Under the pieces are notes generated by a model. That model was not told where the DNA came from and ran no database searches. It saw nothing but the letters and a program-made list of their open reading frames with translations. DNA of 64,000 nucleotides from Escherichia coli (GTDB lineage Bacteria; Pseudomonadota; Gammaproteobacteria; Enterobacterales; Enterobacteriaceae): NCBI RefSeq assembly GCF_003334305.1, contig NZ_QOWS01000003.1; one strand, written 5' to 3'. Made by a program: the position numbers and the translations under genes. Below, in pieces: positions 56,731 to 59,844 of this stretch. Each line of letters starts with the position of its first letter. The first letter of the stretch is position 1.

Positions 56731-57863
56731 CGTCACGCGGTAACCCTTTTTCAATCACCCGAACCAGACGCTGTTTTTTCGGCAATTGCACTTCGACTAT
56801 GCACGCATTTCGTCTCTCTATTTGCTGCGCAATCGCCCACGCTATGTGCTCATCGAGAAGTGGGTGCTCACCTTTACGACTTTCCAGCGCTGTCAAAATC
56901 GTTTCATCCCAAGGGGCATTGCCTAATGCTACGGCGATATTACGCAGCCAACGCAGGTGACCAATACGACGAATCGCCGATCCTTCCGTGACTTTTAAAA
57001 ACTTCTCTTCGCTCCAGGCGAATAACTCAATGAGTTCCGGTGCGTGTAGCGGCTTACGCGGGCTGAAATCGTCTTCTGTAGTGAGTTGCGAATAGCGATT
57101 CCACGGGCAGATAAGCTGGCAGTCATCGCAACCGTAAATACGGTTTCCCATTAACGGTCGCAACTCTTCCGGGATCGCCCCTTCAAGTTCGATGGTGAGA
57201 TAAGAGATACAGCGGCGAGCATCGACGGTATATGGCTCGACGATGGCACCGGTCGGGCAAATCGTCATACAGGCTATGCATTTACCGCATCCTTCCTCGA
57301 CTGGTTGATCCACGGGCAGCGGAATATCGACCAGCAATTCGCCTAAAAAGAAGAAAGAACCGGCCTCGCGATTGAGGATAAGTGAGTGCTTACCTGTCCA
57401 GCCGAGCCCAGCTTTTGCAGCTAACGGGCGCTCGAGAATAGGCGCAGAATCGACAAACGGTCTAAAATTCAGCGAAACACAATGTTGCTGAATCATCTCG
57501 CCCAGCTTTTTGAGTCGGTTGCGCAGAAGTTTGTGATAGTCACGGCCCAGCGCATAACGGCTAACATAGCCGAGTTTGGGGTTTTTCAGCGTGCTGGCAA
57601 ATGCGGCGTTAGCAGGAAGGTAATTCATCCGCACGCTGATCACGCGCAGCGTACCGGGTAATAACTCATGGGGGCGAGCGCGCAGCATACCGTGACGTGC
57701 CATCCAGTCCATTTCGCCGTGGTATTGTTTGTCCAGCCATGCTTGCAGTTTGGGCTCGGACTCGCTGAGATCGGTATCGGTAATACCTACCTGCTGAAAG
57801 CCCAGTTCCAGCCCCCACTGTTTAATTTTTTGCGCTAACTGATTGAGATCGAGGGGCTCTGAC

Positions 57864-57865
<2 letters not shown>
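56726..57865 (-). CDS. queG: Epoxyqueuosine reductase (Fe-S, cobalamin-dependent)
   Basis: Start taken at [17 protein letters not shown] (379 aa); 4Fe-4S ferredoxin-type Cys motifs (CGKCIACMTICPTGA, CDDCQLICPWN). Confidence 0.9.

Positions 57866-59844
<1,979 letters not shown>

What the first reader, a model, noticed from the sequence alone, without database searches (positions are those of the whole stretch)
57863..57881. Divergent queG and nnr genes appear to share overlapping start codons
The queG start (reverse complement of CAT at 57863-57865, giving MSEPLDLNQ...) and an nnr ATG at 57864-57866 ([10 protein letters not shown]...) overlap within the tetranucleotide CATG. If both are the true starts there is no intergenic space, so each promoter and ribosome-binding site must lie inside the other gene's coding sequence. 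Alternatively nnr starts at the second ATG (57879), leaving a 13-bp gap. Either way this is an unusually compressed divergent junction upstream of the nnr-tsaE-amiB-mutL-miaA cluster.
Basis: seen in the sequence. Interest (0 to 1): 0.45.

Follow-up and report, generated by a model that had tools for sequence, protein, structure and literature searches.

The report
Head-to-head queG/nnr start-codon overlap
Two real E. coli genes on opposite strands begin inside the same four bases (CATG), so each gene's control signals sit inside the other gene; this is genuine and conserved, but it is already in the standard annotation and in published lists of overlapping transcripts.

Summary
The queG start is CAT at 57863-57865 (minus strand), nnr has an ATG at 57864-57866, and a second in-frame ATG lies at 57879-57881.

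The window is E. coli. RefSeq annotates the same 2-nt overlap in K-12 (b4166/b4167) and in PGAP genomes.

Comparison with other Enterobacterales supports the first ATG as the ancestral nnr start:
- The CATG and the GAGGGG ribosome-binding site 7-9 nt upstream are invariant in every locus examined. That site is antisense to queG codons 4-5.
- Codon 6 is ATG or GTG only in the Escherichia-Citrobacter-Klebsiella-Enterobacter group. In Serratia and three other lineages it is GAA, GAG, TCG or CAA, which leaves M1 as the only possible start there.

queG is apparently transcribed from an extended -10 element, TGGTATACT, antisense to nnr codons 12-14. The synonymous sites of those codons are frozen.

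Published maps place the queG mRNA 5' end about 24 nt upstream of its AUG, inside nnr. They place the nnr operon 5' end about 388 nt upstream, inside queG. The roughly 410-nt overlap forms RNase III-cleaved double-stranded RNA, and queG-nnr is listed among 16 divergent E. coli excludons.

No initiation-site or N-terminal data for nnr were found. Verdict: real, conserved, already known; modest interest.

The parts
56726..57865 (-). queG coding sequence (epoxyqueuosine reductase, 379 aa), starting at ATG = reverse complement of 57863-57865
   Evidence: The ORF is listed, and RefSeq annotates the same extent. It matches solved QueG structures 5d08 and 5d6s at E = 2e-48, with query residue 6 aligned to the N-terminal end of B. 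subtilis QueG. The N-terminus M-S/T-x-P-L-D-L/F is conserved across seven loci.
57864..59411 (+). nnr coding sequence (bifunctional NAD(P)HX epimerase/dehydratase, 515 aa) read from the first ATG
   Evidence: Supported, and by a match to Nnr structure 2ax3 (TM0922) at E = 8.5e-58. M1 is invariant in all seven Enterobacterales loci compared. In Serratia, L013, L015 and L018 it is the only start-capable codon upstream of the conserved S-I/L-P-H motif.
57863..57866 (.). Palindromic CATG holding both start codons; the two coding sequences overlap by the 2 nt at 57864-57865
   Evidence: The sequence is shown. It is invariant in the alignment of seven genera-level loci and in E. coli 536.
57851..57856 (+). 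Shine-Dalgarno GAGGGG for the first nnr ATG (7-9 nt spacing), antisense to queG codons P4-L5 (CCC CTC)
   Evidence: Duplex energy with the 16S 3' end is -7.2 kcal/mol, against -3.2 for the sequence ahead of codon 6. ATCGAG(G/A)GG is invariant. The queG codons L5 (CTC) and D6 (GAT) are frozen at synonymous sites while other conserved residues vary.
57879..57881 (+). Second in-frame ATG (nnr codon 6), a possible minor alternative start
   Evidence: This codon is ATG in Escherichia, Citrobacter and Klebsiella and GTG in Enterobacter. It is GAG, GAA, TCG or CAA in L015, Serratia, L013 and L018. Only a weak GGA motif lies 7 nt upstream. Some automatic gene callers choose it (P0001-P0003).
57897..57905 (-). 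Extended -10 promoter element TGGTATACT for queG, antisense to nnr codons S12-I13-P14 (AGT ATA CCA)
   Evidence: This is my reading of the sequence. AGT (A/T)TA CCA is kept in every locus, including Enterovibrio and L017. S12 and P14 are the only codon-invariant positions besides M1 among nnr codons 1-36. A published delta-PqueG construct deletes exactly 57895-57925 (primer PgueG-del-L2).
57866..57889 (-). queG mRNA leader, about 24-25 nt, U-rich and poor in Shine-Dalgarno sequence, antisense to nnr codons 1-9
   Evidence: The operon-map end 4,392,114 (U00096.2, Conway, as quoted) converts to window 57889. A p19-captured minus-strand read UCAUUGUAUGGUCCGUCAUGUC reaches window 57882. The -10 element ends at 57897, which predicts a start near 57890. 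Anti-SD pairing is only -2.2 kcal/mol.
57463..57476 (+). Region of the nnr-operon promoter: a -10-like TAAAAT at 57463-57468 and the published 5' end at about 57476, inside queG codons ~130-135
   Evidence: The plus-strand operon is given as P 4,391,701 to T 4,408,049 (U00096.2), which converts to window 57476. TAAAAT lies 7-8 nt upstream. It is conserved in Escherichia, Citrobacter and L015 but not in Serratia or L013. The hexamer assignment is inferred, not demonstrated.
57529..57884 (.). Zone where the two mRNAs pair into dsRNA that RNase III cleaves (p19 cluster S-361)
   Evidence: [quoted passage not shown] It coincides with the antibody-captured dsRNA MS-212 (4,391,717-4,392,100) and with the 413-nt overlap of the two operon maps. 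The coordinate conversion was checked against a read that starts at the C of CATG.
57846..57917 (.). 72-nt island with no substitutions between this window, K-12 and the distant strain 536
   Evidence: E. coli 536 differs at 8 positions in 57789-57845 and at none in 57846-57917. K-12 has no difference between 57672 and 57917.

Best explanation
queG (minus strand) and nnr (plus strand) are divergent genes whose ATG start codons share the palindrome CATG, so there is no intergenic DNA.

nnr is translated mainly from the first ATG (57864), using the Shine-Dalgarno GAGGGG that is written in antisense by queG codons 4-5. Its mRNA starts about 390 nt upstream, deep inside queG, and read-through from yjeV/glyVXY may add to it.

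queG is transcribed from an extended -10 promoter, TGGTATACT, written in antisense by nnr codons 12-14. This gives a leader of about 25 nt that is U-rich and has little Shine-Dalgarno sequence.

The two promoters therefore face each other. The mRNAs are complementary over about 410 nt, which includes both translation-initiation regions. In vivo they pair into dsRNA that RNase III cleaves.

Shown here or in the cited papers: the gene starts and their conservation, the dual-use sequence elements, the overlapping transcripts and the dsRNA.

Inferred: which hexamers act as promoters, that M1 is the start E. coli actually uses, and that the overlap produces reciprocal repression by an excludon-type or transcriptional-interference mechanism.
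For: Sequence and annotation:
- RefSeq K-12 and PGAP annotate the identical overlap.

Conservation of the junction:
- CATG, ATCGAG(G/A)GG and AGT(A/T)TACCA are invariant across Escherichia, Citrobacter, Klebsiella, Enterobacter, Serratia, L013, L015 and L018.
- Gene calls in Serratia marcescens show the same 2-nt overlap: 863..2002 minus strand and 2001.. plus strand.

Which nnr start:
- Codon 6 is not start-capable in four lineages, and no other start codon precedes the conserved S-I/L-P-H motif there.
- SD pairing is -7.2 kcal/mol for M1 against -3.2 for codon 6.

Nucleotide-level constraint:
- Synonymous sites are frozen only at the dual-use codons.
- A 72-nt island is invariant between E. 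coli phylogroups, next to a stretch with 8 substitutions in 57 nt.
- In Enterovibrio the genes are 23 bp apart, yet TGGTAAACT lies at the same distance from the queG ATG (33 nt against 32 nt).

Published transcript evidence:
- ExcludonFinder lists queG-nnr as one of 16 divergent excludons seen in at least 50% of 58 MG1655 RNA-seq samples, and yjeV-queG-nnr as a noncontiguous operon.
- A published delta-PqueG deletion removes 57895-57925.

The queG start:
- The QueG N-terminus aligns to the start of the solved B. subtilis QueG.
Against: - I could not retrieve any direct mapping of the nnr initiation codon. Retapamulin/Onc112 profiling and N-terminomics supplements either lacked the gene or were not held.
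- A start-capable codon 6 (ATG or GTG) followed by AAG AAA is kept throughout the Escherichia-Enterobacter group, so a second initiation site remains possible.
- The generic sigma-70 scan found no promoter in 57300-58400. It requires both hexamers, so it would miss an extended -10 promoter.
- The 5' ends come from RNA-seq coverage maps quoted second-hand, not from nucleotide-resolution TSS data that I could read.
- The -10-like TAAAAT for nnr is not conserved in Serratia or L013.
- No experiment I found shows that the expression of one gene changes that of the other.
Confidence: 0.78

Rival explanations
1. In E. coli, nnr is translated only from the second ATG (57879, MKKNP...). The genes then do not overlap but are separated by 13 nt, and the first ATG is a relic or unused.
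For: Codon 6 is ATG in Escherichia, Citrobacter and Klebsiella and GTG in Enterobacter. It is followed by the favourable AAG AAA AAC and preceded by a weak GGA at 7 nt. Many automatic gene calls start there: P0001-P0003 and P0005, with clusters of up to 783 members.
Against: M1 and its strong SD are invariant, whereas codon 6 is GAG, GAA, TCG or CAA in four lineages in which M1 is the only possible start. SD pairing is -3.2 against -7.2 kcal/mol. The 11-residue spacing from M1 to the S-I/L-P-H motif is conserved without indels. Curated RefSeq/EcoCyc-type annotation uses M1.
Confidence: 0.1
2. Both ATGs are used, giving two Nnr proteoforms that differ by five N-terminal residues. The CATG overlap is real, but it is not the only start.
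For: Two in-frame start-capable codons 15 nt apart are retained in the core Enterobacteriaceae. The nnr mRNA begins far upstream, so both are on the transcript.
Against: There is no experimental sign of it. The five extra residues lie upstream of the Pfam YjeF_N domain, and no role for them is evident. M-to-V at codon 6 is also an ordinary conservative substitution.
Confidence: 0.2
3. The queG start is misannotated. It begins either at the upstream GTG (57910) or at a downstream codon, so the apparent overlap is an annotation artefact.
For: The ORF is open up to GTG 57910, and the SD for the annotated ATG is very weak at -2.2 kcal/mol.
Against: The next in-frame start downstream is M54, which would remove the conserved N-terminal helix that aligns with solved QueG structures from residue 6. 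The mapped mRNA 5' end (about 57889) lies downstream of 57910. The M-S/T-x-P-L-D motif is conserved, while the upstream extension is just antisense nnr sequence.
Confidence: 0.02
4. The architecture is real but functionally neutral. The spacer shrank by genome compaction, and the antisense RNA and dsRNA are by-products with no effect on the output of either gene.
For: Both genes are low-expression housekeeping genes. Many 5'-overlapping divergent pairs give p19 dsRNA (13 of the top 20). The delta-PqueG strain showed no replication-timing phenotype in the one study that made it. No report of anticorrelated expression was found.
Against: The divergent arrangement with a spacer of at most ~30 bp is kept from Vibrionaceae to Enterobacterales. 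Synonymous sites of the embedded signals are under purifying selection. That shows the signals matter, though not that cross-talk does.
Confidence: 0.45

Closest known systems
Divergent excludons / 5'-overlapping divergent operons of E. coli (Conway 2014 operon maps; Lybecker 2014 dsRNA; Huang 2020 p19 capture, PMC7373196; ExcludonFinder 2025, PMC12288877)
   Same: queG-nnr is itself an entry in these catalogues. It has about 410 nt of overlapping divergent transcripts, symmetric ~21-22-nt RNase III products, and detection in at least half of 58 RNA-seq data sets.
   Different: The catalogues treat it as one line in a table. None discusses the shared CATG, the choice of nnr start codon, or the SD and -10 elements written inside the partner's codons. 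Mutual exclusivity has not been shown for this pair.
Listeria monocytogenes excludon (mogR / lmo0675-0677 flagellar locus)
   Same: Divergent genes whose transcripts overlap, so that one mRNA is antisense to the other.
   Different: In Listeria a long alternative 5' UTR from a regulated promoter gives a demonstrated on/off relationship. Here no regulated promoter switch or reciprocal expression is known, and the coding sequences themselves touch.
Convergent (face-to-face) promoter transcriptional interference, e.g. coliphage 186 pR/pL (from general knowledge)
   Same: Two promoters fire towards each other across a few hundred base pairs, which predicts collision or occlusion effects.
   Different: Interference has not been measured at queG/nnr, and promoter strengths are unknown.
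Same-strand short overlaps (ATGA/TGATG type), such as nnr-tsaE (29 nt) and mutL-miaA (8 nt) in this window
   Same: A few nucleotides are shared between adjacent coding sequences in a compact genome.
   Different: Same-strand overlaps allow translational coupling on one mRNA. A head-to-head overlap involves two different mRNAs and cannot couple translation; it forces regulatory signals into coding DNA instead. Most prokaryotic overlaps are unidirectional (PMC3887535).

Membership tests
Head-to-head (divergent) overlapping protein-coding gene pair | Both reading frames encode real, conserved proteins | tested here: met
   QueG matches solved structures 5d08 and 5d6s and Nnr matches 2ax3. Orthologues carry PF08331+PF13484 and PF03853+PF01256.
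Head-to-head (divergent) overlapping protein-coding gene pair | The start codons actually used lie so that the coding sequences share nucleotides | tested here: inconclusive
   Comparative evidence makes M1 the only possible nnr start in Serratia, L013, L015 and L018, and the favoured one in E. coli. No initiation-site or N-terminal data for E. coli nnr could be found.
Head-to-head (divergent) overlapping protein-coding gene pair | The overlap is conserved in related genomes rather than being a single-genome annotation accident | tested here: met
   It is present in 5426 of 5426 E. coli genomes and in at least seven other enterobacterial loci. A 23-29 bp spacer replaces it in Enterovibrio and L017.
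Divergent excludon | Divergent neighbouring genes whose transcripts overlap at their 5' ends | tested here: met
   This was checked in published data rather than by new experiment. The operon maps overlap by 413 nt, and ExcludonFinder lists queG-nnr.
Divergent excludon | The overlapping RNAs pair in vivo and are processed by RNase III | tested here: met
   The evidence is the p19 cluster S-361 and the antibody-captured dsRNA MS-212, with paired 22-nt reads spanning the CATG: 150 plus-strand and 143 minus-strand.
Divergent excludon | Mutually exclusive or reciprocal expression of the two genes | not tested
   No expression comparison was available. It would need RNA-seq correlation or promoter and rnc mutants.
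Extended -10 (TGn) sigma-70 promoter, for queG | TGn immediately upstream of a TATAAT-like hexamer, with the transcript start 6-8 nt downstream | tested here: met
   TGG TATACT occupies 57905..57897, and the published 5' end is about 57889. The element is conserved as TGGTAWACT. The -35 position reads TCGGCG (3 of 6 matches), which is consistent with dependence on the TG motif.
Extended -10 (TGn) sigma-70 promoter, for queG | Promoter activity is lost when the element is mutated | not testable with these tools
   A delta-PqueG strain removing 57895-57925 exists, but queG mRNA levels in it are not reported in the text I read.
Leaderless mRNA | The transcript begins at or within a few nucleotides of the start codon | tested here: not met
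   Minus-strand p19 reads extend 17 nt upstream of the queG AUG and the operon map extends 24 nt. The nnr 5' end is about 388 nt upstream of its AUG.

The most novel reading that the evidence does not exclude
The shared CATG and the interleaved signals could form a selected reciprocal switch. The interleaved signals are the nnr ribosome-binding site inside queG codons and the queG promoter inside nnr codons. Transcription and translation of queG (queuosine tRNA modification) and of the nnr-tsaE-amiB-mutL-miaA-hfq superoperon would then antagonise each other through promoter collision, RNase III cleavage of the ~410-nt duplex, and masking of both initiation regions. That would couple one tRNA-modification pathway inversely to another (t6A, i6A) and to Hfq and mismatch repair, for example on entry into stationary phase.
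Probability: 0.2. Interest if true: 0.5.

Novelty: already known. Interest (0 to 1): 0.25.

Why it matters
For annotation, this case shows that a head-to-head overlap need not be a start-codon error. Comparative data support the longer Nnr (515 aa), whereas many automatic callers pick MKKNP.

For genetics, the CATG palindrome and the embedded signals mean that clean deletions or start-codon mutations of either gene will disturb the other. A queG deletion removes the nnr ribosome-binding site and promoter. A 5' nnr deletion removes the queG promoter. nnr heads the operon that carries tsaE (essential), amiB, mutL, miaA and hfq, so polar and antisense effects matter when queG or nnr mutant phenotypes are interpreted.

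For regulation, the pair is a compact, well-conserved test case for whether divergent excludons have functional consequences.

Tried and rejected
- Generic promoter and terminator scan of 57300-58400: no hits. It is uninformative here because it requires both hexamers.
- The single genome-contig scan returned only five useful enterobacterial loci. I therefore fetched diverged orthologue loci one at a time through protein hits. Several of these come from error-prone assemblies with frameshifts (L014, L022), so I used them only for the junction.
- Searches for initiation-site or N-terminal evidence gave nothing. The TRAINSPOTTER supplements do not contain nnr or queG. The Ribo-RET preprint has no held supplements. 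The Salmonella riboproteogenomics supplements gave nothing. INRI-seq gave only an unrelated off-target entry for nnr.
- Nucleotide-resolution TSS tables were not available. The Thomason 2015 paper is not held, the Conway 2014 supplements are not held, and a parallel dRNA-seq paper lacks the genes.
- One literature search on overlapping start codons was too loosely phrased and useless.
- Rejected: leaderless translation of queG, because reads extend upstream of the AUG.
- Rejected: the upstream in-frame TTG at 57843 as the nnr start. It has no SD, and the codon reads CTA in E. coli 536.
- Rejected: GTG 57910 as the queG start, because it lies upstream of the mapped 5' end.
- Rejected: a proximal nnr promoter at TTTAAT 57821-57826. 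It lacks the key A at hexamer position 2 and is not conserved.
- Rfam finds nothing at the junction.

Full report
**1. Observation.** The window reads ...GATCGAGGGGCTCTGA CATG ACGGACCATACA ATG AAGAAAAAC....
- CAT at 57863-57865 is the reverse complement of the ATG that opens a 379-aa frame, MSEPLDLNQ... (56726-57865, minus strand).
- ATG at 57864-57866 opens a 515-aa frame, [10 protein letters not shown]... (to 59411).
- A second in-frame ATG lies at 57879-57881.

tsaE, amiB, mutL and miaA follow on the plus strand.

**2. Identity and annotation.** The 901 bp around the junction are present in all 5426 complete E. coli genomes, with 100% identity to strain ST2350. RefSeq annotates the same 2-nt overlap in K-12 MG1655: queG b4166 at 4392928..4394067 (minus strand) and nnr b4167 at 4394066..4395613 (plus strand). 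PGAP does the same in ST2350 and in strain 536. QueG matches the solved epoxyqueuosine reductases 5d08 and 5d6s, and Nnr matches TM0922, 2ax3.

**3. Is the queG start right?** The evidence says yes.
- QueG residue 6 aligns with the very beginning of B. subtilis QueG.
- The N-terminus M-S/T-x-P-L-D-L/F-N/H-Q-L is conserved in seven loci.
- The next in-frame Met is residue 54.
- The upstream GTG (57910) lies beyond the mapped mRNA 5' end.

**4. Which nnr start?** I collected junction DNA from these sources:
- four other Escherichia species and a Citrobacter;
- Serratia marcescens (L012), a Pantoea/Erwinia-like genome (L013), Klebsiella (L014) and an unnamed enterobacterium (L015);
- L018, Enterobacter soli (L022) and a metagenomic Enterobacter-like contig (L023).

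CATG is present in all of them. The Serratia gene calls show the same overlap: 863..2002 minus strand and 2001.. plus strand.

Codon 6 varies. It is ATG in Escherichia, Citrobacter and Klebsiella and GTG in Enterobacter. It is GAG, GAA, TCG and CAA in L015, Serratia, L013 and L018. In those four lineages no start-capable codon other than M1 precedes the conserved S-I/L-P-H/Y-x-V/I-W motif.

The distance from M1 to that motif is 11 residues in nearly every enterobacterial N-terminus retrieved. Pairing to the 16S 3' end is -7.2 kcal/mol ahead of M1 (up to -12.2 in Serratia), against -3.2 ahead of codon 6.

M1 is therefore the ancestral and best-supported start. Retention of ATG or GTG at codon 6 in the core Enterobacteriaceae leaves room for a minor second start in E. 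coli. I found no ribosome-profiling or N-terminal data to settle this. The tryptic N-terminal peptides would in any case be too short to observe.

**5. Signals embedded in the partner's codons.**
- *nnr ribosome-binding site.* The nnr SD GAGGGG (57851-57856) is the antisense of queG P4-L5 (CCC CTC). Across the seven loci, queG L5 (CTC) and D6 (GAT) never change at synonymous sites, while other conserved residues (Q9, L10, I14, K15, G18) do.
- *queG promoter.* On the other side, nnr S12-I13-P14 is always AGT (A/T)TA CCA. S12 and P14 are the only codon-invariant positions besides M1 in nnr codons 1-36, and these are rare codons in E. coli (the codon-usage point is from general knowledge). Read on the minus strand, this is TGGTA(T/A)ACT, an extended -10 promoter element (57905..57897).
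- *Outside the order.* The same element is present in Enterovibrio (L016) and in L017. There queG and nnr are separated by 23 and 29 bp. In Enterovibrio the element lies 33 nt from the queG ATG, against 32 nt in E. coli, even though the nnr N-terminus is 8 residues shorter.
- *Within E. coli.* Strain 536 has 8 substitutions in 57789-57845 and none in 57846-57917.

The compressed divergent arrangement is therefore old (Vibrionaceae to Enterobacterales). The full start-codon overlap was found in every Enterobacterales locus examined.

**6. Published transcript evidence.** Huang et al. 2020 (PMC7373196) list p19-captured dsRNA cluster S-361 at 4,391,754-4,392,109 (U00096.2). [quoted passage not shown] Their Table S1 records three further items for this locus:
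- the antibody-captured dsRNA MS-212, classed as Divergent, at 4,391,717-4,392,100;
- the overlap of the two operon maps at 4,391,701-4,392,114 (413 nt);
- a plus-strand operon running from promoter 4,391,701 to terminator 4,408,049.

U00096.3 minus 1,977 gives U00096.2. A listed read, CAUGACGGACCAUACAAUGAAG, starts at the C of CATG and confirms that window coordinate = U00096.2 coordinate - 4,334,225. K-12 and the window have no indels and no mismatches between 57672 and 57917.

Converted to window coordinates:
- nnr operon 5' end: about 57476, which is 388 nt upstream of its ATG and inside queG;
- queG mRNA 5' end: about 57889, giving a 24-nt leader inside nnr codons 1-9;
- dsRNA zone: 57529-57884.

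The queG end sits 8 nt from the TATACT hexamer, as expected for that promoter. A -10-like TAAAAT (57463-57468) sits 7-8 nt upstream of the nnr end. It is conserved only in Escherichia, Citrobacter and L015.

The primer used for an independent delta-PqueG construct (PMC10950094) deletes exactly 57895-57925. That removes the -10 and -35 region I infer.

ExcludonFinder (PMC12288877) lists queG-nnr among the 16 divergent excludons of MG1655 seen in at least 50% of 58 RNA-seq samples. It also lists yjeV-queG-nnr among three noncontiguous operons.

**7. Mechanism.**
- *Shown:* two real genes abut or overlap at CATG. Each gene's initiation signals are encoded in the other gene and are under nucleotide-level purifying selection. 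Both strands are transcribed across the junction, and the RNAs pair and are cut by RNase III.
- *Inferred:* M1 is the start used in E. coli. TGGTATACT and TAAAAT are the working -10 elements. The face-to-face promoters and the duplex, which covers both initiation regions, produce reciprocal dampening. I could not find any test of that last step, and a neutral by-product reading is a serious rival.

**8. Comparison with what is known, and novelty.** The locus is a catalogued member of the E. coli divergent-excludon, 5'-overlapping-operon class. It works like the Listeria excludon only in anatomy, because reciprocal expression has not been demonstrated. It is not leaderless: reads extend upstream of both AUGs.

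Details I did not see stated in the papers I could read are:
- the comparative case for M1;
- the SD lying inside queG P4-L5;
- the extended -10 lying inside nnr S12-P14, with frozen synonymous sites;
- the 23-29 bp spacer seen instead of the overlap in the two non-enterobacterial loci examined, Enterovibrio (Vibrionaceae) and L017.

These refine a known feature rather than define a new one.

**9. Verdict.** Interest is modest. Its practical value is for start-codon annotation and for designing queG and nnr mutants that do not cripple the neighbouring gene.

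Noticed in passing
window 56269-56344 and 56381-56456: The window has only two tandem tRNA-Gly(GCC) genes (ARAGORN and Rfam agree). K-12 (glyV-glyX-glyY) and strain ST2350 have three. This is a copy-number difference of one ~112-nt repeat unit, and it shows that the window is not strain ST2350 despite 100% identity at the junction.
   Followed up: partly
window 56475-56724: A cluster of DnaA-box-like sites lies between the tRNA-Gly genes and the 3' end of queG: 56475, a perfect TTATCCACA at 56542, 56704 and 56716. 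This is the position that PMC10950094 describes for datA, the DnaA-inactivating locus, whose IHF binding is controlled by read-through transcription from the glyVXY promoter.
   Followed up: partly
window 56690-56743: The 17-codon ORF yjeV (plus strand, annotated in K-12 and ST2350) overlaps the 3' end of queG by 18 nt, tail to tail. ExcludonFinder lists yjeV-queG as a convergent excludon. queG is therefore overlapped by plus-strand genes at both of its ends.
   Followed up: no
window 59383-59411: nnr and tsaE overlap by 29 nt on the same strand: nnr ends at 59411 and the tsaE ATG is at 59383. mutL and miaA also appear to overlap by about 8 nt near 63050-63057, going by the K-12 and ST2350 annotation.
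   Followed up: no
window 40116-40156: epmB (39087-40115, minus strand) and efp (40157-40723, plus strand) are divergent with a 41-bp spacer. This pair is another of the 16 divergent excludons listed by ExcludonFinder, so the window holds two of them.
   Followed up: no
window 57789-57845 versus 57846-57917: Between this window and E. coli 536 there are 8 substitutions within 57 nt of queG codons 7-26. A 72-nt stretch with none follows immediately. This is an unusually sharp boundary in divergence and may reflect recombination as well as constraint.
   Followed up: partly
window 61210-63057: mutL is intact in the window (615 aa, 14 mismatches to K-12). The otherwise closest hit, strain ST2350, carries a mutL annotated as frameshifted.
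   Followed up: partly
window 57830-57832 (queG codon Q12): queG Q12 is CAA in all seven diverged loci, although neighbouring conserved Gln codons alternate between CAG and CAA. I have no explanation. It could be chance, or part of another plus-strand signal upstream of nnr.
   Followed up: no
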